Shown: positions 11,500 through 28,050 of the stretch, in pieces
Layout: the number at the start of each line of letters is the position of its first letter
Position numbering within the stretch: position 1 is the stretch's first letter
NCBI RefSeq assembly: GCF_009914755.1
Contig: NC_060940.1
DNA: 64,000 nucleotides
Strand: one strand, 5' to 3'
From: the human T2T-CHM13v2.0 reference genome, Homo sapiens
Position numbers and translations under genes: made by a program
Notes under the pieces: model-generated
Told to the model about the DNA's origin: nothing
The model's input: the letters and a program-made list of their open reading frames with translations, nothing else
Database searches by the model: none

Positions 11500-13106
11500 C
11501 AGACTTCACCACAATGTTTCTACCTATCTCTGCCTGAGGGAAATTCAAGATATTTCCAGTTCTCCCCTATTTCAAAGCTGTGACAAATATTCTAGTAGCA
11601 AAATCTTTGCATACACTTTAATTATTTTCCGATCTTAAATTCCCAGAATGGGAACTGTTGAATCAGCCTGTGTTTGAACACACGCTGGCAACTGACTGCT
11701 GCCCCACCTCAGCAACAACAGGCGCTTACGTTCCCACCTGTACTGAGTTCCAGCTTCCATCTACAAATGCCAGATATTGCCACTTTCACTGCAATGCACT
11801 CCAGCCTGGGCGACAGAGCAAGATTCTGTCTCAAAAACAAAAAACAAAAAACCCAGCAGATTGGTCAGAAAAGACTGTACAGCCACAGGGGTTTCCATGT
11901 AGGGAAATTTCTCTAGGCAAGGAGGAAAAGCCTGAAGAAGACAAGAACTGCTGAGAACAGGGCAGCAGGGAACATCCTGGACCCACCTAGGCCGCACAGG
12001 CTGGAAAGAGAGACCGTGGCCGGGCATCCGAGCCTGGGCCCCTCACAGAGGAGGAACAAAGTGACAGGCCAGGAGAGGAGGGGGAGATGCAGGAGTGCTG
12101 GCATCTGGGGACCAGCCAGCAAGTCCTTGGAGCCCTCCCTCACCAGAAAAGGGGAAGCAGGAAGGACAGCGGCAATGGCCAGAGTGAGGAGAACGCAGCG
12201 TCCTGCAGCTCCATGGAGTGAGCGCCTCCTTCACGGAGCAGCCCTGGCCGCCCTGCAACTGAGGCCGCGGCACCGAGGGTCCCGCCAATGCAGCAAGGGG
12301 CGAGAGACACCACACCTAAGACTCAGGAGCAAGGTCCTGTCCCCGCTCCCAACCCCGGGGCTCCTGGAATCACCGAGGCAGAACTGAAAAGTGAGTGCGG
12401 GCCCCTTTCCCACATGTTCCACTGCAAAGGTCAACACACGCCAGGCGCATTTCAGTGAGGCTTCAAGTCTTCCCTGCAAATCTCATCTGCCTTTTCTGAT
12501 GGCATTCAATGCACAGCGGTCACTTTCAGCTACAACCCCTTCCTACTGCAGTCAAATTAATTCCAAAAGGGAAAAAACAGGTTAAAGAATGGGACTTTAA
12601 CGATGAATTTATTGTAAAAAATAAGCCCGTAGCCAGAAGAATCCTGCCTGGCATCCTGCTGAGACACACAGCCTCTCCTCAGCCCTCTCCAGCACGGGGA
12701 GAGGGCACTGTCACCAGCTCCGCAAACACGCAGGAGACGGGGACCTCCAGAACTAACGTCCTTGGTCTCCAGACGTACCTTCAAACCTCTTCTTTAAATA
12801 TTTTGAATCCCTGCGTGCTACAAGCTGATTTGAAACACAGATTGGGCCGGTCCCAGCACGGTGGCTGGTAGAGAGGGCATCTGATCTTGTCTGTGGAATG
12901 ACGGAAGTCACTGGACTGTCCAGGAACTACATGCCCACCTCCATCAGATGGAAACCACACACTTGTTTATTCTGCAGGGGGCCGTGTGCTCAACAGTGAG
13001 CTGCTAATGTCAGGCTTGTCCATCTTTTTCATACACAGGCTCTACAGTACTGTCAGTTCCCAATTCTGTGGGTCCCTGTATAATCCAACTCTTTAAACAG
13101 AAATCA

Positions 13107-13410
13107 GGCTGTGTGCGGTGGCTCATGCCTGTAATCCCAGCACTTTGGGAGGCCGAGGCGGGAGGATCCCTTGAGACCAGAAGTTTGAGTAGCCTGGGCA
13201 ACATAGTGAGACCTCATCTCAATAAATAAATTAAATAAATAAATAATGTAGGTGGTGCGCACCTGTAATCCCAGCTACTTGGGAGCCTGAAGCACGAGAA
13301 TCACTTGAACCCATGAGGCAGAGGTTGCAGTGAGCCAAAATCATGCCACTGTACTCCAGCCTGCGTGACAGAACGAGACTGTCTCGAAAAAATAAATAAA
13401 TAAACAAACA
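13107..13410 (+). mobile_element. Alu
   Basis: Full Alu flanked by similar aaacagaaa(t/c)cag sequences. Confidence 0.9.
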
Positions 13411-14467
13411 GAAACCAGAATCAGGTGCTCTTATAAGGGATGTGTAGCCCAGAAACTCAATCTTAACACATTCTAAATGACCTGGAATTTCTTGGAGCAA
13501 AAATTCCAGTTTAAATATCAGGAAAATTGTCTAGACTAAGAGAATGGAAACGGACTTTGTGCAACCAACATCAGGTACAGAAAAGAGACCCCAACAATCA
13601 TCATGAACCCAAACAGGCCTTTCTCCTCACTAAGAGAAGAGAACACACACAACCCATGCCTCATTACTCTTTGAGAAGATGTGCCCTGCCTGTGATCTAG
13701 CAGCTAGAGACGGAACATACAACCTGTTCTCAATATTCAAATAATTTTTTAAAGGACATGGTATCACACTGAGCAAGTGAATAATGCAATTCTGTTGTAG
13801 AAGAATGCACGGCTGAAAAGACCTGAGCAACTCATGTCCAAAACTTGCAGTTTCCACAGCAGCACCTCCTCCCAGCACACTGCCCTTTGAACCTGCTTTC
13901 TAAACAACTGTGCTGGGCAGCCCGGTGACCACATGTCATCGCACGGCAGGTGTGGAGCAGCATAGAGCACCCTGACCCTCGCACCTGCTTGGGGGACTGT
14001 TTCTGCACCCAGTGCTTCTCTGCAGCCACAACCTGCCCCACACAGAACTGCAGCACTACGTGGCATCCTGTCCAAGTCCATTTCCACAGAAGGGGAAAGT
14101 GCCACGCCAGTGCCCACTCTCTTCCAAACACATCCTCTCAGAAGGGACTGGCCACGCTTGCCCCCTCATTTCTGCAGCGCTTCCCAGTTCATCACCTGCT
14201 TGCCAGACTCCATCTCCCACCGGTGTCAATCAGCTGCCCTGGAGCATCTAAACCCTGGGTCAGGCGGCTCAGGGGATGAGCGCATAGATTGAAAAAGGAA
14301 CACTCCCTGTTTCTCCCCAAAACTGTGCTGAAGGCAGTCTAGAGGGCCAAGACCTGTCGAGAAGAGCTGCCCAAGGCCTCTTTTCAGGCCCCACATCTCT
14401 GCAGGCTGCTGCTGGATCCTTCTCATAAGAACACATCTCAGAAGAGCAGAACAAACCACTTCCCTCT

Positions 14468-15489
14468 TGTAGGGACCAGCCCCACAGGGTCGGTGGGTCT
14501 CTCCCTGTGTGTGGCGATGAGAGAGTGTAGAAATAAAGACACAAGACAAAGAGATAAGAGAAAAGGCAGCTGGGCCCGGGGGACCACTACCACCAATGCG
14601 CGGAGACCGGTAGTGGCCCTGAATGTCTGACTGCGCTGTTATTGGATACAAGGCAGAAGGGGCAGGGTAAAGAATGTGAGTCACCTCCAATGATAGGTAA
14701 GGTCACATGGGTCATGTGTCCACTGGACAGGGGGCCCTTCCCTGCCTGGCAGCCGAGGCAGAGAGGGAGAGGAGACAGAGAGAAAGACAGCTTATGCCAT
14801 TATTTCTGCATATCAGGGACTATTAGTATTTTCACTAATTTACTACTGCTATCTAGAAGGCAGAGCCAGGTGTACAGGATGGAAAATGAAGGCGGACTAG
14901 GAGCGTGACCACTGAAGCACAGCATCACAGGGAGACAGGCCTCCGGATAACTACGGGCAAGCCTGACTGATATCAGGCCCTCCACAAGAGGTGGAGGAGC
15001 AGAGTCTTCTCTAAACTCCCCCGGGGAAAGGGAGACCGCCCCCCTTTCGCAGTCTGCTAAGTAGCGGGTGTTGACACCTTTTGCAAAAGGTGTCCCTTGA
15101 CACCTTTTGCTACCGCTGGGCCACGATCCGCCTGGTAACGGGCGTCTTCCCAGACGCTGGCGTCACCGCTAGACCAAGGAGCCCTCTGGTGGCCCTGTCC
15201 GGGCATAACAGAAGCCTCGCACTCTTGTCTTCTGGTCACACTTCACTATGTCCCCTCAGCTCCTATCTCTGTATGGCCTGGTTTTTCCTAGGCTATGATT
15301 ATAGAGCGAGGATTATCATAATATTGGAATAAAAAGTAATTGCTACAAACTCATGATTAATGATATTCGTATATAATCATATCTAAGATCTATATCTGGT
15401 ATAACTATTCTTGTTTTATATTTTATTATACTGGAACAGCTCGTGTCCTCTGTCTCTTGCCTCGGTGCCTGGGTGGCTTGCCGCCCACA
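14468..15489 (-). mobile_element. 3' LTR (LTR13-type)
   Basis: 1022 bp direct repeat of 23730-24742, adjacent to the PPT. Confidence 0.95.
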
Positions 15490-15503
15490 TCTCCCCCCTT
15501 TTT
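15490..15503 (-). other. Polypurine tract AAAAAGGGGGGAGA
   Basis: Immediately upstream of the 3' LTR on the minus strand. Confidence 0.92.
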
Positions 15504-15526
15504 ATTAACTAGAATCACCATCGCCA

Positions 15527-15583
15527 TCATTGCTTGTTGTTGACTTCGGACTTGGTTTCGGACTCCTTGGAGGCATCTGCAGA
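15527..15583 (-). CDS. Putative Rec-like protein, coding exon 2 ([18 protein letters not shown])
   Basis: Acceptor tgttgtctccttttag|TCT GCA; 18 codons plus TGA in an alternative frame of env, as in HML-2 rec exon 2. Confidence 0.6.
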
Positions 15584-17284
15584 CTAAAAGGAGACAACAT
15601 AAGCATACCAATATTAATAATGCCAGTAACAACAATGATCCTCTGACGGGTTTGAGCCATTTGAAGGGATTAAAATCAGGTAATTGTTTAGTTATGCCTT
15701 CAAAAATGTGTGAGCCAGGAACTGTGGATAAATGGGCTTGTGAAGCCTCAAAGATTTGCTCTTTAAGTTGTGAAATATCCAAGGTTAAGTTATCATCCCA
15801 GGCTTTTAAATGTCTTGAGACATTTTCCCAGCTATGTTGATCTTGATTATAAGCATAAGGCGTTATGCAATAATCAGAAGTATTCCAATCACACTGTAAT
15901 TGCATACGGTGTTGCAAGTTCATAACTCTATCTCCCAGCCAGGTTACACTTTGGCGGAGATCATTAATCTGATTAGCTAATTTTTGATCAATTTGCGCCT
16001 GAGAATTCCAAAGTCTGGAGGAATTTTTCTGGCATGCTTCAACATAGTGAGCAGTTTGAACAGAATTGCGGATGGCAACTCCAGCAGTTGCTGCTGTTGC
16101 AGTAACCGCAAGTAGTCCTGCAAGGACTGCAATAAGAGTAAAAATAAATCTCTTTGTTCTTTTGAGGATGTCTTTAAGAACTTCATTGACTATGTGAATA
16201 GAGGGGAAGACTCCCATGGACGATGTAAAGAAACTGGTATCCATACCCCCTCCCTAGCCCTTACCAAGAGAATACTTGTAGTGGGATTAAAAGTTGCATC
16301 AATGCAAGTGAACAGCTTACAGTTATGACATTCTATAGTTTGTGCATCAGGCATAATAATTATATTTCCAACCAACAGCATGTAAGGGGGTTTGACACAG
16401 CTCCTAATGGGTATCACCCATTCAGAAATAAGGGTGATGTTGAATGTGGGTGTTTTGGTTTTAGTACGAAGGAGCTGATAGGTAGTGTTCCATATCTTTA
16501 TTCCCGACAAAGCTGCAGCTAATTTCCATAGTTCAGGATGTTCTGGGGTAAAAAAGGGATGAATAATTTTTGGTCTAGGAGGAGCAATACCTGTGTCCAT
16601 CCATTTAAATGGGTAAGGAGACACCCGTTGTCTCATCGTGTAAGACTGCCACCCATGCTCTATATAATCTAAGGAATAAATAAACTCCGAGCATAAGGTA
16701 TTTTTGCTGGAGCAATCTTGCCAATAATGTCCTTTTGGAGCCCAATCAATAACAATACCCATGGCTAGAGTTTGGAGTACAACAGCCTTGGGAGCATTAC
16801 AATTATCCCATAAAATTGAAGTCACTATAAAAGGCCCATTTGTAGGTTTCTTTGGACAGTCCGGCAGTCCTTTTGTTTTATTAGTTTTGGTAGTGAGAGG
16901 AACTCTCCATGCCTCATGTGGGGTACGTTTGACAGTGAGAAGTTGAAAAGAGTTAGTACTGAACACATTATATACTTGATAAGAATCATTTGTAAAGGAC
17001 GGTACAGTCCACATCCAATTCTGTTAAGAATAAGCTAAACAACCAGGCGACTTCCCAATACATAATGGTGGATATTTATAGCCAATTGACAGATTAAAGT
17101 GCATACCTTCTTCTTCCGGTTGAGCTGAAAACCGATCATCATTAGGGATCGGCATGAATGCACTATTATTAGTGTAAACTTCTACTGGAGAGTCCCTCCA
17201 GGAGACAGACCGAATTAGAAGGGGAAAAGGAACATATGCCCAATAAGTATAATTTTGAGTTGCCCCGACCGGTGGTATACTTAC

Positions 17285-17545
17285 CGCTGCACTGACTACC
17301 ATAAAGGCAGCCAGAATTATATTACCAGTCATTTTTGGGATTCCTTTTTCTGTTAAGAATTTTTCTGTTTGATGAGATAAAATCTGTATTCGACCCCAAG
17401 TAGGTGGGGTTGAACGAGAGGTGTTGTAGGTCACACGGCGAGATTTTGTCTCAATGTGGATGTCATGAAGTGTATGTATCAGGCGGTGAAAGTTGCTCTT
17501 TTGTTTCCGATGGGTCTTTGCCTTTTCTTTCTGGGAGCGTTTCAT
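17285..17545 (-). CDS. Putative Rec-like protein, coding exon 1 (87 aa, shared with the Env signal peptide)
   Basis: ATG 17545; K/R-rich N-terminus; PPTW at aa 47-50; [12 protein letters not shown] then GCG|GTAAGT donor at 17284, the same position as in HML-2 rec. Confidence 0.6.
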
Positions 17546-20085
17546 CTTTGGAGTTATGGTGCAATTTTAATTGTCGGGAGGGGACCCACACAGGCTGTAG
17601 TCCTTTTCCTGGGGAAACACAAACAAAACCCCTACCCCAAGTTATGACCGTGCCTAATTCCCATGTGTTAGTTTTTACGTCCTTCCACCATACCCGCATT
17701 CCTTTTTGTGGATCAAATTTATTTCCAGTGAAATGTTGTTCTGCGGCTGTGAAAGGTTGATTTCTTGTTAAGTTTAAGAAATTTAGTGTGAAAAGAGCCA
17801 GATTTAATTGGGCATGAGGAGTAATAGCATCTCCCTTTGATTTAGTATCCTGTTTACGAAGTTGATCTTTGAGTGTTTTATTGGCTCGTTCAACCAAGGC
17901 CTGTTCTCCAGAGTTATAGGGAATGCCTGTTGTGTGAGTAATTGCCCATGTCTGAGGAAACTTTTTAAAAGCAGCACTAGTGTAGGCGGGGCCGTTATCA
18001 GTTTTTAGTTTCTCAGGACAGCCCATAACCGAGAAACAGGAAGGCACATGTCGTTTACCATGAGCTGTACTTTCGCCCGTTTCACAAGTGGCCCAAATAA
18101 AATGAGAAAAGGTATCAATAGTTACATGTATAAAAGAAAGCTTGCCAAAAGGAGGATAATGAGTCACATCCATTTGCCAAAGAGCATTCTGTGAAAGTCC
18201 TCTAGGGTTAACTCCTGAAGACAGTGGTGGTAAAATTAACACTTGACAAGTAGGACAGTGACGCACAGTAGTTTTAGCTTGCTTCCATGTAAGGGGGAAC
18301 TTGTTTCGGAGTCCCGCAGCATTGACGTGAGTTAAAGCATGAAAATTTTCTGCATCTGTAAAAACGGGAGTAACTAATGTATCAGCTCTGGCATTTGCTG
18401 CCGAGAGGGGTCCGGGGAGGGGTGTGTGGGCCCGAATGTGAGTACTGTAGAAAGGAGAAGACCTTGCTCTGAGCACAGACTGAAACTTTTGAAAAAGAAG
18501 GAATAGGTTATCATCAGGCAGAAATTTGATTAAGGCAGTTTCAATGTTGCGAGCAACATGTACGACATACGCTGAGTCAGAGACAATGTTAACTGGCTCA
18601 GGAAAATCTTCAAGGACAGCCATAACAGCAGGCAGTTCAGCTCGTTGTGCTGAAATAGCCCCTGTGTTAAGAACACGTTCTCTGGGTCCTGTATATGCTG
18701 CTCGGCCATTAGAGGAAGCATCAGTGAAAACAGTGACAGCTTCAGGTAATGGGGTGTTTCTAGTAATGTTAGGTAAAATCCAAGACGTGAGTTTAAGGAA
18801 CTGAAATAATTTTACATGAGGATAGTGATTATCAATTATACCTGGGAAACGTGCCAAATGCACTTGCCAAGCAATGCAAGTAGCAAAGCCTGTTGAACTT
18901 GTAATCGGGTAAGGGGAACAACGATTTTTTGAGGCTCTGTTCCTGAAAGACGAAGGAGACGAGAACGAGCCTGACCAATTAAGGTAGAAATTTGATCTAG
19001 ATAAATAGTTAGTGTACGTAAAGAGCTGTGTGGGAGAAAACACAATTCAATTAAATTATGTCCCTGAATAATGAGTCCTGTTGGTGAATGTTCAGTGGGA
19101 AAAATTAGTACTTCAAAAGGTAAATGTGGATTTACTCTGGTAACCTGAGACTGTTGAATGCATTTTTTTATAAGTCGTAATTTAGAATCCGCCTCAGGAG
19201 TCAAAGACCTTTTACTGCGTAAATCAGGATTGCCCCGTAATATTGCAAAAAGATTAGACACAGCATAAGTAGGAATGCGTAGGGAGGGACGAATACAATT
19301 AATATCTCCAAATAATTTTTGGAAATCATTTAGAGTTTTTAAAGAGTCTCGTCTGAGTTGAACTTTTTGAGGCTTAATGACCTTATCCTCTAGCTGCATC
19401 TCTAAATAGTGATAAGGAGATGAAGTGTGAATTTTTTCTGGGGCGATAACCAAGCCAGCTGCTGTGACCACTTGCTGTAATGCAGAAAAACAAGACATTA
19501 ATACAGAGCGTGAAGGTGCTGCACAAAGAATATCATCTGTGTAATGAATAATATAACATTGGGGAAATTTATCTCTAACTGGCTTTAATATGCATCCCAC
19601 ATAATATTGACAAATAGTGGGGCTATTGAGCAGACCTTGAGGTAGGACTTTCCAATGGTAACGTGCTGCAGGAGCAACGTTGTTAAGGGCTGGAACAGTG
19701 AAAGCAAATTTTTCAAAGTCCTGAGGGGCCAGAGGAATGGTAAAAAAGCAATCTTTAAGGTCAATGATGATAAGTGGCCAATACTCAGTAATCATACTGG
19801 GGGAGGGCAAACTGGGTTGTAATGTCCCCATAGGCTGAAGGACAGCATTTACTGCCCTAAGATCAGTAAGCATTCTCCACTTACCAGATTTCTTTTGAAT
19901 AACAAAAACAGGTGAATTCCAAGGAGAAAAAGAAGGTTCAATGTGTCCCAATTTTAACTGTTCAAGAACCAAAATATGAAGTGCCTCCAGCTTATTTTTT
20001 GGGAGCAGCCACTCATCTACCTAGACAGGTTTTTAAGTTCTCCAGGTCAAAGGGATGGGTTCTGGAGGCTTGATAGTGACCGCTT
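17463..20085 (-). pseudogene. HML-4 pol (RT, RNase H, integrase), disrupted
   Basis: [32 protein letters not shown] (YMDD variant), [28 protein letters not shown]; two N-terminal stops (~20020-20040) and a frameshift at ~18890. Confidence 0.95.
17608..17630 (-). promoter_or_regulatory. env/rec splice acceptor ttttgtttgtgtttccccag|G (exon starts at 17608)
   Basis: Pyrimidine tract plus CAG in the integrase FVCVSPG region, the position of the HML-2 env acceptor. Confidence 0.75.
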
Positions 20086-21117
20086 CTAAAAAGAATAACC
20101 AAGTCCTGTAGAGTCTGCTTTAGGAGTAGGTATGATATGCTCAGTGATGCCTTGTGCTGATTTTTCTAAACCCAGACCTTGAACAAATCCCATTTTGGTC
20201 ATCATATCTTTACTCTGCTGGCTGTAACTGCCTTTAGGAAAAGTAATCTGAGCCCCCCATTGATATAAAAGATCTCTTCCCCACAAATTAACAGGAATGG
20301 GTGTAATGAGGGGGCGAATAGTTCCAATCTGTCCTTCAGGCCTGTACAATGTAAAATTGTGGAACTTTCATATACCTGTGAAGCCTGACCAACACCCACG
20401 AATGCTGTGGAGGCATGCTCCTTTGGCCAGTGTCGGGGCCATCGATGTAAAGCGATAATGGACACACCAGCGCCCGTGTCAATCATTCCCTCAAACTTTT
20501 TTCCCTGAATATGCACGGAGCACACAGGACGAGTGTCAGAAATTTTGCTGGCCCAGTAGGCTGCTTTACCTTGATAATCTGTGCTACCAAAACCTCCCTT
20601 TCTTGTACTAGAACTAGATCCCAAAGGAATGTAAGGAAGTATCAAGAGTTGAGCAATGCGGTCCCCAGCTGCTGCATTCCAAGGGACTGCAGAGCTAATG
20701 ATAATATGAATTTTACCTGAATAGTCAGAATCAATTACACCAGCATGTACTTGAACACCTTTTAAATTTAAACTTGAACGTCCCAGTAGCAACCCGACAC
20801 TGCCAGTCGGCAAGGGACCAAAAACACCTGTAGGAAGAGCAATACGTGGCTCTCCAGGCAACAAAAGAAATATTTCTGGTACAACAGAGATCTACTGCTG
20901 CTGAGCCTGTGGTGACGGGGGACAAGCATTGTACTGAGATTGGTGTTGGGGCTGAGGCATTAGATCCTGTGGCACAAATTGCTGAAGTGGGAATTGGGGT
21001 GGAGGTTGAATGGATTAAACTGGGAAGGCTCCTGTCTGGCTGGACGCCAGGGGCTGAGAGTTGAGGAATGCCCCATTGTTTAGAGGGGGCTGGGGCCGGC
21101 CCCTCATCCCGTTTCCC
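20086..21117 (-). pseudogene. HML-4 pro (dUTPase, protease, G-patch), frameshifted
   Basis: GSAAVDL, GRSSLNLKG, GVIDSDYSG, RKGGFGST, IDTGAG, MMTKMGFVQGLGL; slippery GGGAAAC at 21117-21111 and CTTTTTA at 20093-20087. Confidence 0.92.
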
Positions 21118-23582
21118 TGATTTTTAAAAGGCCGTACAGGATTGCCATCAATATCAAATCTGGAATGGCATTGAGATGCCCAGTGAAGACCCTTTTGGCT
21201 TCGTGGGCATACAGCAGAAGGTGGGGCGTCTTGTTGCTGAAAAGTTTCTTTTTGTTGTTGGTGGTGATGTAAAGGACGGCCACCTGCACGCCGAGGGCAA
21301 TTTCTTTCTGCATGTCCCTTCTGGCCGCATATGAAGCATTGGCCAGAGAATTGTCCAGGCATTCGAATAGAGGCCATAGCTTGTGCCATAATCATTGCTG
21401 TATGGAGAGTTCCTCCCACCCCTTCACAGGCTTTAATGTAGGAGGTGAGTATATCACCACCCGGTGGAATTTTACCTTTGGCGGGGCAAATAGCCGCCTG
21501 ACCATCTGGATTTGCTTGTTCATAAGCCATAAGTTCTACAACAAGTCTTTGGCCGTGGCTATCAGGAATAGCCTTTTCTGCTGCGTCTTGAAGATGAGTA
21601 ATAAAGTCTGGGTAGGGCTCATGTTGTCCCTGTCTGACGGCTGTGAAAGATGGGCATACTTTACCATCATCTTGAATTTTGTCCCAAGCATCTAAGCAAC
21701 CATTTTCGCAGTTGTTCAATAACCTCATCATTTAGTATAGTTTGGTGTCGGATTGTGGCCCATTGACCCATTCCCAGTAACTGGTCAGCCATAACGTTAA
21801 CAGGAGGATTAGTGCCCTAAGACAAATGCGTTCCTGGACAGCATCAACCCACCAAGTCCTGAATTGTAAATATTGGGATTTAGATAAGACTTGATTTTGC
21901 CAAAATTTCCCAATCATAGGGTACCAAACGTTTATCTTCTCCTAAGGCTTTTAATGTGGAACGGACAAAAGGAGAGTTGGTGCCATATTGTTTCAATGAT
22001 TCTTTAAAATCTTTGAGGAATTTAAAAGAAAAACTTTCCCATGTAGCAGGGCGTAGCTGAACCTGGCCTGGATGGATGGGGTCAGGCTGAATTACCACCT
22101 GAACAGCGGGAATGCCAGGTATTGGCTGTGCCCCAGGAGCAGGCAACTGCGGAGGCTGATTATTTACCTGAGCAGCCTGAGTTTCGGGCTGAGGGGCTTG
22201 ATTATCAGCCTCTTGATCTTGTTGAGCTGCGGGGTCAGCCGCCTGCTGGGCAGGATCAACAACAGGCTGTGGGTGGTTTTGTACTGCTGGGGTGGCAGGT
22301 ACTGGAGGTTGTAAAATTACAGGAAATTGCCAAGCTTCAGGATCCCCATATTCCCTTGCTTGAACTATAGCCCTCATAAGCGGAGTGTCATCTTCAGGGA
22401 TGTATGTAATTTGTTGCTTACGAGCGGCAATGGTAGTATTGGCAACAGCAGTTGCGACCGGACCAGGAGCAGAAAAAGAGGTAGAATTTTGAATAGAAGG
22501 AGAGTCAAAAAACTGAAAGCCAGGGTGACAGCAGATTACCTGCTGAGCAGGTCTTTCATGGGCCTGAAAACCAGGCTGCCACGGCAAGTGTGAACCAGGC
22601 TTCAAGGGAGTCTGTGACTCTGAGTCCGATTTGCAGGAAAGGAACCAGGCTTCAAGGGAGCCTGTGACTCTACCCAAGTCTGATTTATAGGAAAGGGACC
22701 AGGCTTCAAGGGAGCCTGTGACTCTGAGTCCGATTTGCAGGAAAGGAACCAGGCTTCAAGGGAGACTGTGACTCTACTCGAGTCTGATTTATAGGAAAGG
22801 GCTTCAAGGGAGTCTGTGACTCTAACTGAGTCCGATTAGGAGAAATAGGATTGAGGGCCTCATTACCGGGCCGAGAATTGGAAGCCTCTTTTCTGAGCTG
22901 TTCATATAGCGGAGCCTCTGTACCGGGCTGCATAGAAACATAATTTATAGACTCGTTTACAGGCTGCCTGGTCTCATCTGCTATTTGCACAGCGGCAGCG
23001 TTGAAACAGTGAGGAGAGACAGGAGGGTCTGGCTGCAATGGCTGTTGATATGTTTCAGCTGAGTTTTGCTGATTGGGGGAGATTAGTATATTTAGGTCAG
23101 TTAAAAGATCATCATAAAGCGGCAATGGGGGTGCAGTAGCCTCTGGTGTAGGTGGAAGTGGTGCAGGCATGTCAGAGTGGAAGTCCTCCTTTGAAATTAC
23201 GTTCTCAATTTGTGTAGTATCCTCAGGGGAAAGAGAGCTGAGCGCTTCCTCGACCTCCCTCAGAGGAGAGGAAAGAGGGATCAGTCTCCATATTGTCCTC
23301 CTGAGTCTGTAAGGAGTCTAAGACAGAGTGAACCGAAGCCCAGATTGACCAAATGGTGGGTGGGATAAAATGTCCCCCTTTATGAGCAATTTTGAATTGT
23401 TTGCCAATCTCAACCCAATCTTTAAGTTCTAGAGTTCCCTCAGTCGGAAACCAAGGGCAAAGAAGATCTACAACCTCAAATAGTTCAATTAACTTTTCAG
23501 TAGAAACTTTAACACCTCCTTCTTTAAGAAGAGTTTTTATAAAATTTAAATAAGCCAAATACTTTGTACTGGCCTGTCCCAT
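21015..23582 (-). pseudogene. HML-4 gag, multiply frameshifted
   Basis: MGQASTKY myristoylation start, CPWFPTEGTL, capsid MHR VRQGQHEPYPDFI, zinc knuckle CFICGQKGHAERNC, and a degenerate second knuckle. Confidence 0.93.
22593..22840. repeat. Gag-internal tandem repeat (50/54/50/54 bp units plus a partial unit)
   Basis: Repeated aaccaggcttcaagggagtctgtgactct...aggaaagg. Confidence 0.95.
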
Positions 23583-23609
23583 GGTGTCCCCAGAAAACTG
23601 AGTGCTCAA

Positions 23610-23619
23610 GCTTACCACC
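23610..23619 (-). promoter_or_regulatory. Major viral splice donor GGTG|GTAAGC (exon ends at 23616)
   Basis: Consensus donor just upstream of the gag ATG, as in HERV-K. Confidence 0.75.
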
Positions 23620-23708
23620 AAGTTTATAGACTGCAATCCTCAGGAATCTCTCGTTGAACTCCTCCGCTGATCCCGCACTCAGGGTGCAACTTCACACAGC
23701 GAGGGAGA

Positions 23709-23727
23709 GCCCCACGTCAGAGCGCCA
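23709..23727 (-). other. Degenerate tRNA-Lys primer binding site TGGCGCTCTGACGTGGGGC
   Basis: 2 nt after the 5' LTR; resembles Lys1,2 PBS TGGCGCCCAACGTGGGGC. Confidence 0.8.
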
Positions 23728-23729
23728 GA

Positions 23730-24742
23730 TGTAGGGACCAGCCCCACAGGGTCGGTGGGTCTCTCCCTGTGTGTGGCGATGAGAGAGTGTAGAAATAAAG
23801 ACACAAGACAAAGAGATAAGAGAAAAGGCAGCTGGGCCCGGGGGACCACTACCACCAATGCGCGGAGACCGGTAGTGGCCCCGAATGTCTGACTGCGCTG
23901 TTATTTATCGGATACAAGACAGAAGGGGCAGGGTAAAGAATGTGAGTCACCTCCAATGATAGGTAAGGTCACGTGGGTCACGTGTCCACTGGACAGGGGG
24001 CCCTTCCCTGCCTGGCAGCCGAGGCAGAGAGGGAGAGGAGACAGAGAGAAAGACAGCTTATACCATTATTTCTGCATATCAGGGACTATTAGTATTTTCA
24101 CTAATTTACTACTGCTATCTAGAAGGCAGAGCCAGGTGTACAGGATGGAACATGAAGGCAGACAAGGAGTGTGACCACTGAAGCACAGCATCACAGGGAG
24201 ACAGTTAGGCCTCCGGATAACTACGGGCAAGCCTGACTGATGTCAGGCCCTCCACAAGAGGTGGAGGAGCAGAGTCTTTTCTAAACTCCCCCGGGGAAAG
24301 GGAGACCCCCCCCCCGCCCCTTTCCCGGTCTGCTAAGTAGTGAGTGTTGTTCCTTGACACCTTTTGCTACCACTGGGCCACGATCCGCCGGGTAACGGGC
24401 GTCTTCCCAGACGCTGGCGTCACCGCTAGACCAAGGAGCCCTCTTGTGGCCCTGTCCGGGCATAACAGAAGCCTCGCACTCTTGTCTTCTGGTCACACCT
24501 CACTATGTCCCCTCAGCTCCTCTGTATGGCCTGGTTTTTCCTAGGCTATGATTATAGAGCGAGGATTATCATAATATTGGAATAAAAAGTAATTGCTGCA
24601 AACTCATGATTAATGATATTCATATATAATCATATCTAAGATCTATATCTGGTATAACTATTCTTGTTTTATATTTTATTATACTGGAACAGCTCGTGTC
24701 CTCTGTCTCTTGCCTCGGTGCCTGGGTGGCTTGCCGCCCACA
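23730..24742 (-). mobile_element. 5' LTR (LTR13-type)
   Basis: 1013 bp, followed by the PBS; contains AP-1 TGAGTCA (23943-23949) and two CACGTG (23970, 23979). Confidence 0.95.
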
Positions 24743-26050
24743 CCCTCTTACTACTGGGAGCTCACCTTGCCAGCTCTAGACTCAGCTTGGACTGGCTGTC
24801 AGGGCAACGTTGTGTACAGGAATACATCACACTATGCACCAGACCAGCCACATAAGGAGGAACTCCCCAAAAGGAGAGAGAAAATCGAAAGCCACTTCTC
24901 TCCATGCTCCCTGCTTCTCCCCTCACCTTCCCCTAAGGATGCAGCCACCTTTGCAAAAGACAGAACCACCCTAGGGAGGGCAGGAGGCCACTCTGCCTAG
25001 TCCCCCAATTCTACCTTCAGCAAAATCATTATGTTTCTTTGTTCCAAAGGGAGGATTCCAAGCCTCACCCATTCAGAGTATCGGCCCTCAAACAAGGCCG
25101 AATCACAGCCTCTTCCCAAACAGCTGCTTTCTGACAGCAGGAGGCTGAAACAGGCCCCGGGGTCACAGAGTTCAGCCATCTGCCAAAGAAATATGTACAG
25201 TTCTTCCATATGAAGACACCCCTCCTACCTCCAGCACGGCATGGTCAAGACATTCAGGCCCAATCCCCGGGAAGACATCCTGGGCAGTGGCACTGAAGAT
25301 TTCCTTACAGAGTGCTGGGCTGAGCTGCCCGGCAGACCCTCCCTCGGGGGCTCCGAACGTGAGGGGCAGGGTGACACTGGAGTCTCTACCACTTATGAGG
25401 CAGGTACCTAACGCCTCTGCAGCTCAGCTTCTGCACCTGTAAAATGGGAACAACACGTACCTCGCAATGAGGTGTGAAAGTACCTAGGGAAGCGCCTGTC
25501 TTGAGTAGTCAGATCAAGAAATGGTACTCACTGCCTCTGGCCCACTTACCATCAGACTGGGCCAGGCCACTGTCTGCCTTCACGCTCGCACTGCTCCCCC
25601 TGTTGGCTGTCCACGCGGGCACACAAGGGAAAGTTCACTGGGAAGGGGGCTTCTCACACAGGGCCTACAGGGCCACCCTAAAGTCCAGATGCAAACCCAC
25701 TTGAACCCTGAAGATCTATCCATCCTCAGGTGAAAATCCAGTATCAGGGCTGCCTCTACCATTACAGACAGGAAACACGGCATGTTCTCACATACGTACA
25801 CATGGGGGAATCCAGCTGACAGAGATGCAAAACGCTTGTTCGTGACACTTCCTCATGTGGAAATCCATCTTGCATTCTATCATTCTTGCTCACTGGATTC
25901 CAGTGTTTTTGTGCAAAAAAGCCATCTCATGCGAAGAAAACTGCAGATATGAAATGTCCATCATGTGGAACTGCCAAGGCCATGAGAAAATTTGCTGTTT
26001 CCTCTTCCCGTGGATGACACCAAATACACACCTTGCATTGGAACAGCGTT

Positions 26051-26130
26051 ACTGGGTGCGAGTTAACCTCACAAACTTCGCCATGACTGTCACTGGGTGC
26101 AGGTTAACCCCACAAACTTTGACATGACTC
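26051..26130. repeat. Imperfect 41-bp tandem duplication
   Basis: actgggtgc..gttaacc.cacaaactt.g.catgact occurs twice. Confidence 0.8.
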
Positions 26131-26407
26131 TCGGCCCCAGCCTCCACTGAGCCTCGCCAAGCCGCCTAATTCATGGTTTTGCGTGTTAGCCAGGGCACTC
26201 TGGGGTACAGCCACACATGTCGAAATAGCGAAAGGCATCCCTTTCAGCCCTCCAACTTTTTCTCAACAGAACCTTCTTCCTTAACACTTCGGATTATTAC
26301 GCATCTCTACAAACTCCACGAGTGAGCTGCAGAAGGTTCAAGAGCCTCCTGATGTAGTTACAAAATTCAGTGTCACTCTGCATTTTTCTCAAAAGAGGGC
26401 CCATACC

Positions 26408-26605
26408 TTCCCCGGTCTCTACTAAAAACACAAAAATTAGCCGGGCATGGTGGCACACGCCTGTAATCCCAGCTACTCGGGTGGTTGAGGAAGGAGAATC
26501 GCTTGAACCCGGGAGGTGGAGGTTCCCGGGTCAAGATCGCGTCACTGCACTCCAGCCTGCGCGACGGCAGCGAGACTCCATCAAAATAAAATAAATAAAT
26601 AAACA
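26408..26605 (+). mobile_element. 5'-truncated Alu
   Basis: Linker plus right arm and (AAAT)n tail. Confidence 0.88.
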
Positions 26606-27249
26606 AAAGTCGCATCCTGGAAGATAAGGAATCAAGTAAACTTCTTGGGTTTTCCTTCATTTAAAATATTTGCCTTTTAAATCCAATTTTAAAGCCATGT
26701 AGACGTTCTTCCATCACCCACTGCACATCGCATACAAGGCATAAATTTTTAAACCGTCGTCCCCAGACTGTAGAACTTAGCATATGGAAAACATAAAAAC
26801 ACGAGGGATACTTTTAGCGACAGAGAGAAAATAAACACCAGCGATACATTTAGCAAAACATTTCACCCAACAAGTGGTTTGTTTTGATCCTTCCCCTAAA
26901 ATCCCTCCTACCTGTCAAGCTCACTTTCCCCTCGGTGATCCTGCACATTCGGCCTCCCAGGGGCTTCCCACAACGCTGAGCACAGCCACGGGCAGCAAAA
27001 GCACCCAAATGCCCCTTGGCCGGGCCGTGAAAGGCGAGTTTTCCCGACCAATGTCATCAAGAATCTGGAAAAGGGGGCCCAGGAGCATCAGGTGCTTTCA
27101 GCAAGAACTTGCACCTTCTGCTTCTCTCGCAGGCGGAGGCGCCAAGGACCCCGTTCCAGGTGGAAGCCCAGGGCGGTTCCTCTACAGACAGAACCGAAAG
27201 GTAACCCTGGAGGCTCGGCTCCAGGCTGCGCCAAGCCGAAAACAAACTT

Positions 27250-28050
27250 TCCAGGCACTTCCACCCCGCTGGGCCGGGTGACACCTCCCGGCCTCCCCCG
27301 CCCTCCGCGCGTCTGTCAGCGCCCCCGGCCAGGCCGCCGCCCGACGCAACCCAGGCCCGGTCTCCCCGCCGCAGCCAAGCAGCGCCCTCGGCCGGCGCCC
27401 GCCATCCCCGGCCCGGCCGCCCGGCCGCAGGTAAGGCGGCACCCGGCCCTCGGGACCCCGGGCCGCCCCGCCTCGCCGCGCGCTCACCAGCTAGGTGGTG
27501 GTCCTGGCTATGGGCCTCGCGTCTGCGCGGGCGCCTCCCCCGAAGCGCTCCGCGGCTCGGGGCCTCCTCAGCGTCCTGCTTCCCTAAGCTGAACTCCAGC
27601 AACGGCGGCCCTCACGCTGTGCCCGCGACGCCCCGCCCCCCGCGATGCCCCCGCCCCCCGCGACGCCCCGCCCCCGCGCGACGCCAGGCAGGACTTCCGT
27701 CGCACCGCCGCCGCCGCCCGCGCCCATTGGCCGCGCCCATCGTCCCTTCGCCGCGGTCTGAGTGGGCCCCGCCTCTGCCCCAGCTGCATTTCCGGGTTGG
27801 GGCCTGGCGGGCGGGAGAGGCCCGGCCCCGCCTGGGCAGGGGGACCTCGCGCGAACCAATCCCAGGGCCCCGGGGGCGGGGCTCTGCGGGGGTGGGGCGA
27901 GCTGTCATTCCCAGCTCCCAGACCGGGAAACTGAGGCTCAGAGGGGACCTGGCTCCGGCCAAGGTCACGCCCGAGGTAATAGCGGGGCTGGGCTCGAACC
28001 CGGGGCTCGGACTCCGGAGCCGGCTCTGCGTAAATGCGGAGGCGCAACTT
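27250..28050 (-). promoter_or_regulatory. CpG island promoter (PDPK1-derived)
   Basis: Very CpG-rich; GC boxes, CCAAT boxes (~27726, ~27856), ETS-like cttccg, and a cgacgccccgcccccgcg-like unit x3 (27626-27683). Confidence 0.85.
27488..27700 (-). pseudogene. PDPK2P: Duplicated PDPK1 exon 1 (PDPK2P; probable first exon of the ERVK13-1 transcript)
   Basis: ccc ATA GCC AGG ACC ACC ACC TAG CTG|gtgag versus PDPK1 MARTTSQL (ATG GCC AGG ACC ACC AGC CAG CTG|gtgag); the 5' end is approximate. Confidence 0.85.

What the first reader, a model, noticed from the sequence alone, without database searches (positions are those of the whole stretch)
15527..17545. Intact two-exon Rec-like gene (105 aa) hidden in a decayed HERV-K(HML-4) provirus
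Seen in sequence: joining 17545-17285 (87 codons, GCG|GTAAGT) to 15583-15527 (ccttttag|TCT...TGA) gives [105 protein letters not shown]. It has no stop or frameshift, while gag, pro, pol and env are all broken. The leader donor (23616) and env acceptor (17608) are intact, and no AUG lies between the acceptor and ATG 17545 (A at -3). Known: HML-2 Rec, a Rev-like CRM1 export adaptor, is also 87+18=105 aa, with PPTW at 47-50, LAA at 78-80 and exon 2 starting Ser-Ala from the homologous acceptor in an alternative env frame. Inference: this is an HML-4 Rec orthologue. I know of rec reports for HML-2, HML-6 and HML-10 but not for this locus, and have not checked the literature. Caveats: the basic region is Lys-rich rather than RRRRHRNR, and the NES-equivalent [10 protein letters not shown] lacks the last Leu of WAQLKKLTQL.
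Basis: partly seen in the sequence, partly recalled or inferred. Interest (0 to 1): 0.9.

Follow-up and report, generated by a model that had tools for sequence, protein, structure and literature searches.

The report
Fossil Rec-like gene in HML-4 provirus
An old retrovirus copy in human chromosome 16 still carries an unbroken two-piece reading frame built exactly like the Rec gene of its better-known cousin HERV-K(HML-2), but it most likely stayed open by chance rather than because the body uses it.

Summary
On the minus strand, ATG 17545 opens 87 codons ending GCG|GTAAGT. The acceptor ttttag|TCT at 15583 opens 18 more codons and a TGA.

The layout matches HML-2 rec position for position. I compared it with an HML-2 locus in the same genome. 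Both have an 87-codon exon 1, a GTAAGT donor and a TAG|TCTGCAG acceptor (nt 1961 vs 1963 from the ATG). Both have an 18-codon exon 2 in an alternative env frame, and PPTW at residues 47-50. Similar donor and acceptor signals recur in other HERV-K-like env loci.

The ORF being intact carries little weight. The provirus has only 9 breaks in 8.2 kb, so a 105-codon frame survives by chance with P about 0.6-0.7. A second HML-4 copy, on chr4, is equally intact; that makes 2 of 9. This copy's own changes look neutral (4 replacement, 2 silent), and two of them fall in the family's most conserved motif.

The RefSeq transcript does not splice this intron, and its 5' exons hold 52 ATGs.

Verdict: this is a plausible fossil of an ancestral HML-4 rec-like gene, a new member of a known kind. 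Function is unshown.

The parts
23730..24742 (-). 5' LTR of the HML-4 provirus (LTR13-type by the literature's naming; I did not run a repeat library)
   Evidence: Direct repeat with 14468-15489. Aligned LTRs differ by 23 substitutions in 999 columns and 5 indels.
23610..23622 (-). Leader splice donor GGTG|GTAAGC; the last exon base is 23616
   Evidence: It coincides with the end of a RefSeq NR_040023.1 exon (hub annotation).
17608..17620 (-). env splice acceptor ttccccag|GAA; the first exon base is 17608
   Evidence: It is a RefSeq exon boundary. AG is kept in 8 of 9 HML-4 copies.
17285..17545 (-). Rec-like coding exon 1: 87 codons, identical to the N-terminal extension and hydrophobic core of the Env signal peptide
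   Evidence: Pfam PF15695 scores 22.3 bits on exon 1 alone and 30.2 bits when the env frame is read on. BLASTP against HML-2 exon 1 gives E 3e-9.
17279..17284 (-). Proposed second donor, GTAAGT; in the env frame these bases are codons Val88-Ser89
   Evidence: The hexamer is the same in HML-2. GT is kept in 7 of 9 HML-4 copies. GT[AG]AGT is present in 12 of 20 other HERV-K-like env loci.
15584..17284 (-). Proposed rec intron, 1701 nt, containing most of env SU and TM
   Evidence: RefSeq NR_040023.1 keeps this stretch inside its last exon (hub annotation).
15584..15600 (-). Pyrimidine tract and proposed second acceptor, ttgtctccttttag
   Evidence: AG is kept in 13 of 15 HML-4 copies. The same TAG|TCT[GA]CAG is found in HML-2 and at the mapped position in 16 of 17 other aligned loci.
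15527..15583 (-). Rec-like coding exon 2: 18 codons plus TGA, in an alternative frame over the env cytoplasmic tail
   Evidence: The 18-codon frame is kept in 12 of 15 HML-4 copies.
17024..17545 (-). Truncated Env ORF (173 codons plus TAA). This is what the annotated, unspliced-in-env transcript would encode from the same ATG
   Evidence: PF13804 HERV-K_env_2, E 1.6e-21.
15429..17023 (-). Rest of env in two open pieces: SU remainder 16193-17023 and TM 15429-16253
   Evidence: PF13804, and PF00517 GP41 at E 2.4e-22.
14468..15489 (-). 3' LTR; the polypurine tract lies just upstream at about 15490-15505
   Evidence: The sense-strand U3-R RNA folds with z = -6.18 against 20 shuffles.

Best explanation
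The ORF is a fossil of a rec-type accessory gene carried by the exogenous HML-4 retrovirus.

Inferred mechanism in the virus, by homology with HML-2: a doubly spliced mRNA (leader donor to env acceptor, then a second donor after codon 87 of env to an acceptor in the TM cytoplasmic-tail region) joined the long N-terminal extension of the Env signal peptide to 18 codons in another frame. That would give a small basic nuclear protein acting after transcription on viral RNA.

In the chr16 provirus (ERVK13-1) all signals and the 105-codon frame are still present. This is most simply explained by chance survival in a lightly damaged provirus, not by selection in the host.

Shown here: the sequence features, the positional homology with HML-2 rec, the recurrence of the signals in other HERV-K-like lineages, and the lack of any signal of constraint at this locus.

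Inferred only: that the second splice was or is used, that the protein is made, and that it ever exported RNA.
For: 1. Anatomy. ATG, 87 codons, GTAAGT, pyrimidine tract plus AG, 18 codons and TGA are all present.

2. Same architecture as an HML-2 locus of this genome (L043).
- Exon 1 is 87 codons with donor GTG|GTAAGT.
- The acceptor is gttgttag|TCTGCAGG at nt 1961, against nt 1963 here.
- Exon 2 is 18 codons.
- In both, the stop is the TGA formed inside env's Ala-Met-Met codons.
- Exon 1 aligns without gaps, residues 41-85 to 41-85, with 14 of 45 identical, E 3e-9.

3. Wider recurrence. I took 20 other HERV-K-like env loci from the PF15695 hits.
- 12 of 20 have GT[AG]AGT at the donor position.
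- 16 of 17 alignable loci have TAG|TCT[GA]CAG at the mapped acceptor position. The 17th has the motif 4 nt away.
- 6 loci of one group keep exactly 18 alternative-frame codons, and 6 of another group keep 11.
- The env codon that supplies the acceptor's A reads TTA, ATA or GTA. The amino acid changes (Leu, Ile, Val) but the TA is kept. This hints at constraint at the nucleotide level.

4. Chance survival.
- There are 9 breaks in 8211 nt, giving a Poisson P(0) of 0.70 for the ORF plus its signals.
- 57% of 105-codon windows in the proviral genes are open.
- The LTRs differ by only 2.3%.
- 2 of 9 HML-4 copies (this one and L005 on chr4) keep the ATG, both splice sites and the 105 codons. Exon 1 is open in 3 of 9, and exon 2 in 12 of 15.

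5. No constraint at this locus. Changes seen in this copy and no other are 4 replacement and 2 silent, where the site ratio is 3.5 to 1. Two of the replacements (codons 52 and 54) lie in WGQIK, which is invariant in the 7 other HML-4 copies compared (L012 left out as too divergent) and is also kept in the other groups.
Against: - No transcript evidence for the 17285>15583 junction. The only RefSeq model (NR_040023.1) keeps the intron.
- That model starts outside the provirus at 27644, and its 5' exons (3317 nt) hold 52 ATGs.
- The donor and acceptor bases are also env codons (Val-Ser; Leu-Val-Cys-Arg). The stop lies in Ala-Met-Met. Part of the resemblance could therefore be a by-product of env conservation.
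- 8 of 20 other loci lack GT at the donor position, and 6 of those read ATGAG[TC] as a group trait.
- The HML-2 functional motifs are not reproduced. There is no Arg run at 13-20 (the region is Lys-rich instead), and Gln sits at position 59 of the NES equivalent.
- Exon 1 alone falls below Pfam's cut-off: 22.3 against 27.5 bits.
- Exon 2 shares only 5 of 18 residues with HML-2 (my count). It also varies a good deal among HML-4 copies.
- With 6 private changes, the neutrality test has almost no power.
Confidence: 0.62

Rival explanations
1. Coincidence of env coding. HML-4 never had a rec gene. The GTAAGT, the TAG|TCTGCAG and the TGA are simply conserved env codons (Val-Ser at the end of the signal peptide; Leu-Val-Cys-Arg at the membrane/tail border; Ala-Met-Met). 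An 18-codon open stretch between them is unremarkable.
For: - All three signals sit in env residues that are conserved.
- A random 18-codon frame is open about 42% of the time ((61/64)^18, my arithmetic).
- Exon 2 peptides differ widely among HML-4 copies and between groups.
- One group of loci has ATGAGT instead of a GT donor.
- No spliced transcript is annotated.
Against: - The codon before Val keeps its TA while the amino acid changes (TTA, ATA, GTA).
- The Val-Ser codons are GT[AG]AGT, a full donor consensus rather than other synonymous choices, in 12 of 20 diverged loci plus HML-2 and HML-4.
- In L044 the stop stays at codon 19 although env reads Val-Leu-Ile there instead of Ala-Met-Met.
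- In HML-2, and in a macaque HML-2/HML-8 recombinant, these same sites are used (PMC11379458, passages read).
Confidence: 0.2
2. The product that matters is the Env signal peptide, not a two-exon Rec. The annotated singly spliced RNA encodes a 173-codon truncated Env from the same ATG. Signal peptidase would release a peptide of about 95 residues that shares residues 1-87 with the proposed protein, as happens for HML-2 SP and MMTV Rem-SP.
For: - The RefSeq transcript keeps the intron, so the ATG at 17545 opens the 173-codon frame (hub annotation).
- The sequence after codon 87 (VSIPPVGA, then TQNYTYW) parallels HML-2's (VSLPMPAGA, then AAANYTYW). In HML-2 a 96-residue SP is cleaved and goes to nucleoli (PMC2649029, passages read).
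- The Pfam model scores higher when the env frame is read on: 30.2 against 22.3 bits.
Against: - HML-2 SP had no RNA-export activity and did not shuttle (PMC2649029).
- The cleavage site here is inferred by alignment only.
- The same 52 upstream ATGs stand in the way of translation from the RefSeq transcript.
- This reading can be true alongside the best explanation.
Confidence: 0.1
3. Co-opted host gene. ERVK13-1 is kept by selection because it makes a working Rec-like nuclear shuttling protein.
For: - The ORF and all four splice signals are intact.
- The locus is transcribed in blood and B cells (microarray data in PMC3706881, passages read).
- No ATG lies in the LTR end and leader or between the acceptor and the start codon.
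- The first 40 residues carry 12 Lys/Arg, against 11 in HML-2 (my count).
Against: - Chance survival is 0.57-0.70.
- An equally intact paralogue sits on chr4.
- Private changes are 4 replacement and 2 silent, two of them in the most conserved motif.
- Gln replaces the last hydrophobic residue of the NES equivalent.
- The annotated transcript starts outside the LTR and has 52 upstream ATGs.
- I found no report of such a protein.
Confidence: 0.06

Closest known systems
HERV-K(HML-2) Rec (formerly cORF), the Rev-like export adaptor that binds the RcRE
   Same: - Two coding exons of 87 and 18 codons.
- Exon 1 is the N-terminus of the Env signal peptide.
- GTAAGT donor, and a TAG|TCTGCAG acceptor in the same env codons.
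- Exon 2 is in an alternative env frame, starts Ser-Ala, and ends at the same TGA.
- PPTW at 47-50 and LAA at 78-80.
- Similar basic load in residues 1-40.
   Different: - Only 31% identity over residues 41-85, and no detectable similarity in residues 1-40.
- Lys-rich rather than RRRRHRNR.
- The NES equivalent lacks the hydrophobic residue at position 59, and this copy carries two private changes there.
- Exon 2 has 5 of 18 identical residues.
- No splice, protein or RcRE evidence. No Rfam family matched the LTR.
'Rec domain' reports in HML-10 type II (Grandi 2017, PMC5667498) and HML-6 (as cited in PMC7232394)
   Same: These are non-HML-2 HERV-K groups whose env 5' end matches the Rec conserved domain, with a few loci free of stops. 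The Pfam model hits HML-4 copies in the same way: L004-L007 score 35.5-37.7 bits.
   Different: The reports rest on a domain match to the exon 1 / Env-SP region. The HML-10 paper contains no occurrence of 'splic', and its puteins are 72-76 aa. Here the second exon and both splice sites are identified and compared. I saw the HML-6 paper itself only as a citation.
sRec of macaque SERV-K/MER11 (PMC11379458)
   Same: A rec-like doubly spliced form that uses the same donor and acceptor positions, with a diverged second exon. RNA-seq junction reads were found for it (passages read).
   Different: Its exon 2 is 62 aa and derives from HML-8. It showed no export activity in a reporter assay. It is a warning that keeping the splice form does not prove Rec function.
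Betaretroviral signal-peptide regulators (MMTV Rem/Rem-SP; HML-2 SP)
   Same: A long N-terminal extension of the Env signal peptide carries nuclear targeting. It is produced from env or a spliced env derivative (PMC2649029 and PMC8725593; for the latter I saw the abstract only, in the listing).
   Different: Rem's second exon stays in the env frame (recalled, not checked here). HML-2 SP does not export RNA.

Membership tests
HML-2-type Rec (two-exon env-derived accessory protein) | Exon 1 is the N-terminal ~87 codons of env, ending at a GT donor near the end of the signal peptide | tested here: met
   87 codons, then GCG|GTAAGT. HML-2 locus L043 has 87 codons, then GTG|GTAAGT.
HML-2-type Rec (two-exon env-derived accessory protein) | Exon 2 is a short alternative-frame segment entered at an AG acceptor in the TM cytoplasmic-tail region | tested here: met
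   ttttag|TCTGCAG at nt 1963 from the ATG, with 18 codons plus TGA, where the env TM frame is a different frame. In HML-2 it is nt 1961 and 18 codons.
HML-2-type Rec (two-exon env-derived accessory protein) | Sequence membership by Pfam PF15695 (HERV-K_REC), cut-off 27.5 bits | tested here: inconclusive
   Exon 1 alone scores 22.3 bits, below the cut-off. The env-frame read-through scores 30.2 bits, above it. The 87 model positions correspond to Env residues 19-105 of HML-2, so the model describes the Env N-terminus, not exon 2. It gave 150 listed matches in this genome.
HML-2-type Rec (two-exon env-derived accessory protein) | Arg-rich nuclear localisation / RNA-binding motif near residues 13-20 | tested here: not met
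   Residues 13-20 read RKQKSNFH here, against RRRRHRNR in L043. The region is basic but Lys-rich. Whether it can do the same job was not tested.
HML-2-type Rec (two-exon env-derived accessory protein) | Leu-rich NES at residues 50-59 | tested here: not met
   [10 protein letters not shown] here, against WAQLKKLTQL in HML-2. Hydrophobic residues are present at 53 and 56, but position 59 is Gln. It is Gln in all 6 HML-4 copies that read in frame there and His in L005. Codons 52 and 54 are private changes of this copy.
HML-2-type Rec (two-exon env-derived accessory protein) | A doubly spliced mRNA is actually produced | not testable with these tools
   No RNA-seq access. RefSeq NR_040023.1 keeps the intron (hub annotation).
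HML-2-type Rec (two-exon env-derived accessory protein) | Binds a structured response element in the LTR and exports unspliced RNA through CRM1 | not testable with these tools
   The only lead is that the LTR U3-R sense RNA folds with z = -6.18 against 20 shuffles, which is not specific. No Rfam family matched the LTR.
HERV-K(HML-4) provirus (betaretrovirus-like) | Full gag-pro-pol-env structure with dUTPase and G-patch in pro, a gag/pro frameshift site, and paired LTRs | tested here: met
   Pfam domains in order. Rfam RF01097 at 21069-21117 scores 43 bits, at its gathering score. LTR pair. The group name HML-4/ERVK13 comes from the hub's gene name and the literature, not from a repeat library run here.

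The most novel reading that the evidence does not exclude
A rec-type two-exon accessory gene is ancestral to much of the HERV-K (HML) supergroup rather than special to HML-2. On this reading, ERVK13-1 on 16p13.3 (and a sister copy on chr4) still yields a doubly spliced mRNA and a 105-residue Rec-like nuclear protein in human cells. That would be a second, unrecognised Rec lineage with coding capacity in humans.
Probability: 0.12. Interest if true: 0.7.

Novelty: new member of a known kind. Interest (0 to 1): 0.4.

Why it matters
Rec is one of the few HERV proteins with described cellular partners and a debated role in germ-cell tumours. It has been treated as particular to HML-2, with later "Rec domain" reports in HML-10 and HML-6 that did not address splicing.

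If the complete two-exon architecture also exists in HML-4, and its signals recur in other HERV-K-like lineages, then complex regulation of the Rev/Rec type would be old in this clade. The question of when betaretroviruses gained it becomes testable.

For human biology the practical point is narrower. ERVK13-1 is widely used as a "lncRNA" marker, and it contains a start-to-stop frame whose translation could be checked in existing Ribo-seq and MS data.

As things stand nothing shows that the protein is made or works, and the intact frame is what chance predicts.

Tried and rejected
- The founding HML-4 paper (Seifarth 1998, PMC110222) is not held. I could not see whether it discusses a cORF-like frame. 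I also did not see the HML-6 group paper cited in PMC7232394.
- One literature search was badly framed and returned only general microprotein papers. I replaced it.
- Rfam with a permissive threshold over 12000-28000 found no response-element family in the LTR.
- A PDB sequence search with exon 1 found nothing at E up to 1.
- The RNA fold of the 3' LTR gave z = -6.18. I treat it only as a lead. The LTR mixes AT-rich and GC-rich blocks, and in this copy it contains a palindromic insertion; both lower the z-score without implying function.
- I considered a dN/dS test on the 54-nt overlap of exon 2 with env and dropped it. There are too few sites, and the two frames confound each other.
- I could not test orthologues in apes, because only the human assembly is held. 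I could not test splice junctions, Ribo-seq or MS.
- I did not run structure or complex prediction. A short, probably disordered protein would not settle any of the open questions.
- I could not name the two other groups of env loci ("A", "B"), having no repeat library. L044 probably corresponds to the HML-10 type II 1q22 locus of PMC5667498, judged by position alone.
Full report
**1. What is there**

The window is T2T chr16:2,666,001-2,730,000. A provirus lies on the minus strand between two LTRs of about 1020 nt, at 14468-15489 and 23730-24742.

Pfam places the domains in betaretroviral order: Gag p10, p24 and zinc finger; dUTPase, protease and G-patch; RT, thumb, RNase H and integrase; HERV-K_env_2 and GP41. 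Rfam finds a gag/pro frameshift site at 21069-21117, scoring exactly its gathering score.

The genes are broken but not heavily. gag is in 5 open pieces, pro in 3, pol in 2 and env in 3. That is 9 breaks in 8211 nt. The aligned LTRs differ by 23 substitutions in 999 columns (2.3%) and 5 indels.

**2. The observation**

- ATG 17545 sits in caaagATGa and opens 87 codons ending GCG, followed by GTAAGT.
- The acceptor ccttttag|TCT at 15583 opens 18 codons and a TGA.
- Joined inside a script, the frame runs 105 codons and stops in exon 2.
- The leader donor (GGTG|GTAAGC, 23616) and the env acceptor (ccccag|GAA, 17608) are intact and are the RefSeq exon ends.
- There is no ATG between 17608 and 17546, and none on the minus strand from 24000 to 23590.
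- Exon 2 is in a different frame from the TM reading frame.

**3. Comparison with HML-2 rec, made on sequences from this genome**

A whole-genome search with Pfam PF15695 gave intact HML-2 env loci. I fetched one on chr7 as L043. Its rec layout is as follows:
- 87 codons, then GTG|GTAAGT;
- the acceptor gttgttag|TCTGCAGG at nt 1961 from the ATG;
- 18 codons, then TGA.

The HML-4 values are 87 codons, GCG|GTAAGT, nt 1963, 18 codons and TGA. In both, the acceptor lies in the env codons Leu-Val-Cys-Arg at the membrane/tail border, and the stop is formed inside Ala-Met-Met.

BLASTP aligns exon 1 without gaps, residues 41-85 to 41-85, with 14 of 45 identical and E 3e-9. The numbering therefore coincides (PPTW 47-50, LAA 78-80). 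Residues 1-40 show no detectable similarity, but they are about as basic: 12 against 11 Lys/Arg by my count.

The Pfam match needs a caveat. Its 87 positions correspond to Env residues 19-105, so the model continues in the env frame past the donor. Exon 1 alone scores 22.3 bits, below the 27.5 cut-off. Read on in the env frame it scores 30.2 bits. The model also gave 150 listed matches across the genome. It therefore recognises HERV-K Env N-termini in general, and not a rec gene.

**4. Other HML-4 copies**

A DNA search of the assembly found 9 copies that hold the exon 1 region and 15 that hold the exon 2 region.

| Feature | Copies keeping it |
|---|---|
| ATG | 6 of 9 |
| ATG plus 87 open codons | 3 of 9 (this one, L005 chr4, L004 chrY) |
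| Donor GT | 7 of 9 |
| Acceptor AG | 13 of 15 |
| 18-codon exon 2 frame | 12 of 15 |
| Everything at once | 2 of 9 (this copy and L005) |

L004 has the 105 codons open but has lost both splice dinucleotides.

**5. Is the intact frame meaningful?**

No. Three estimates agree.
- At 1.10 breaks per kb, the ORF plus its signals expects 0.36 breaks, so P(0) is 0.70.
- 57% of all 105-codon windows in the proviral genes are open.
- Given the 6 substitutions private to this copy, and 37 of 945 single-base paths leading to a stop, P(no stop) is 0.79.

The private changes are 4 replacement and 2 silent, against a site ratio of 3.5 to 1. This cannot be told apart from neutrality, and the test is weak. 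Two of the replacements (codons 52 and 54) fall in the motif WGQIK. That motif is unchanged in the 7 other HML-4 copies compared; I left L012 out as too divergent. It recurs as WGQ[IM]K in the other groups. This is what decay looks like, not maintenance.

**6. Signals in other HERV-K-like env loci**

From the PF15695 hits I took 20 loci that are neither HML-2 nor HML-4. They are a hand-picked set of higher-scoring hits that reach the end of the model, not a random sample.
- Donor position: 12 of 20 have GT[AG]AGT, 6 read ATGAG[TC], one reads GCGAGT, and one has a deletion.
- Acceptor position: 17 of 20 could be aligned. 16 of those have TAG|[TC][CT]T[GA]C, and the 17th has the motif 4 nt away.
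- One set (L044, 46, 47, 48, 49, 57) keeps exactly 18 alternative-frame codons. Another (L054, 55, 58, 59, 60, 62) keeps 11.
- The env codon before Val reads TTA, ATA or GTA. The residue changes but the TA needed for the acceptor stays.
- In L044 the alternative-frame stop stays at codon 19 even though env reads Val-Leu-Ile there.

These points favour real constraint on a spliced form. The lineages share ancestry, however, and I ran no formal test.

**7. Expression**

The RefSeq lncRNA ERVK13-1 (NR_040023.1) starts at 27644, outside the provirus, and runs through the whole 5' LTR. It uses 23616>17608, then keeps 17608-12590 as one exon. The proposed intron is therefore retained.

It ends about 17 nt after an AATAAA in the host flank (hub annotation). 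Its first two exons (3317 nt) contain 52 ATGs. Translation from that RNA would be inefficient, and from ATG 17545 it would give the 173-codon truncated Env rather than the 105-residue protein.

Microarray data show the locus is expressed in blood and B cells (PMC3706881, passages).

**8. Literature**

What I saw:
- Passages of PMC5667498. It reports a Rec domain in HML-10 type II, says Rec had until then been considered exclusive to HML-2, and contains no occurrence of 'splic'.
- Passages of PMC11379458. It states HML-2 rec as 87+18 aa and describes macaque sRec, which has junction reads but no export activity.
- Passages of PMC2649029. HML-2 SP is 96 aa, shares 87 with Rec, localises to nucleoli and has no export activity.
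- Passages of PMC3778440 and PMC4724089, which give the HML-4 copy number as 5-12 and its age as about 35-55 My.
- Passages of bioRxiv 10.1101/2024.10.28.620668 on HML4 env in primates, which say nothing about an HML-4 rec.

Searches for an HML-4 rec found none in the held library. Seifarth 1998 is not held, so an early remark there cannot be excluded. Supplements of bioRxiv preprints were closed and I opened none.

**9. Verdict**

The structure is real. It is best read as the HML-4 counterpart of rec, preserved at this locus by chance (confidence about 0.6). The main rival is that the resemblance is a by-product of env coding (about 0.2). A working host gene is unlikely (about 0.06).

It is a new member of a known kind. 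It is of moderate interest, mainly for the history of complex regulation in HERV-K-like viruses.

Noticed in passing
window 14468-15489 vs 23730-24742: The LTRs differ by only 2.3% (23 of 999, 12 of them in CpG context). The closest paralogue (L002, chr19) is 96% identical over 2.3 kb. With the 0.2%/My convention used in PMC5667498 this gives roughly 6 My, far below the 35-55 My quoted for HML-4. Either this is a late HML-4 integration or LTR gene conversion has occurred. It needs ape orthologues.
   Followed up: partly
window 12590-12612 and 3' LTR around 14590-14600: The RefSeq transcript reads through the 3' LTR and ends about 17 nt after an AATAAA in the host flank. At the LTR's likely poly(A) signal the 3' LTR has a 4-nt deletion relative to the 5' LTR (GATAAATAAC against CCAATAAC), and neither is a canonical AATAAA.
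   Followed up: partly
window 22594-22801: A tandem duplication of 104 nt (96% identity) inside gag.
   Followed up: no
window 19698-19986 (-): Rfam RF01417 (RSV_RNA, 'retroviral 3'UTR stability element') matches full length at E 9.8e-23, but below its gathering score (83.7 against 105 bits). The match lies inside the RT-coding part of pol, so it probably reflects pol homology in the family's seed rather than an RNA element.
   Followed up: no
window 15030-15070 (3' LTR): A 19-nt insertion relative to the 5' LTR creates a near-perfect hairpin (AAAAGGUGUC...GACACCUUUU) in the U3 RNA.
   Followed up: no
L044-L063 (own genome): Two sets of other HERV-K-like env loci keep the rec-type acceptor, with alternative frames of exactly 18 codons (6 loci) or 11 codons (6 loci). 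The 18-codon set also has an Arg/Lys-rich PRKRKRPRN near the N-terminus and GTGAGT donors. L044 is probably the HML-10 type II 1q22 provirus in DAP3.
   Followed up: partly
window 13108-13384 and 26438-26554: Alu-like matches (Metazoa_SRP, below threshold) flank the provirus, inside exons of the ERVK13-1 transcript.
   Followed up: no
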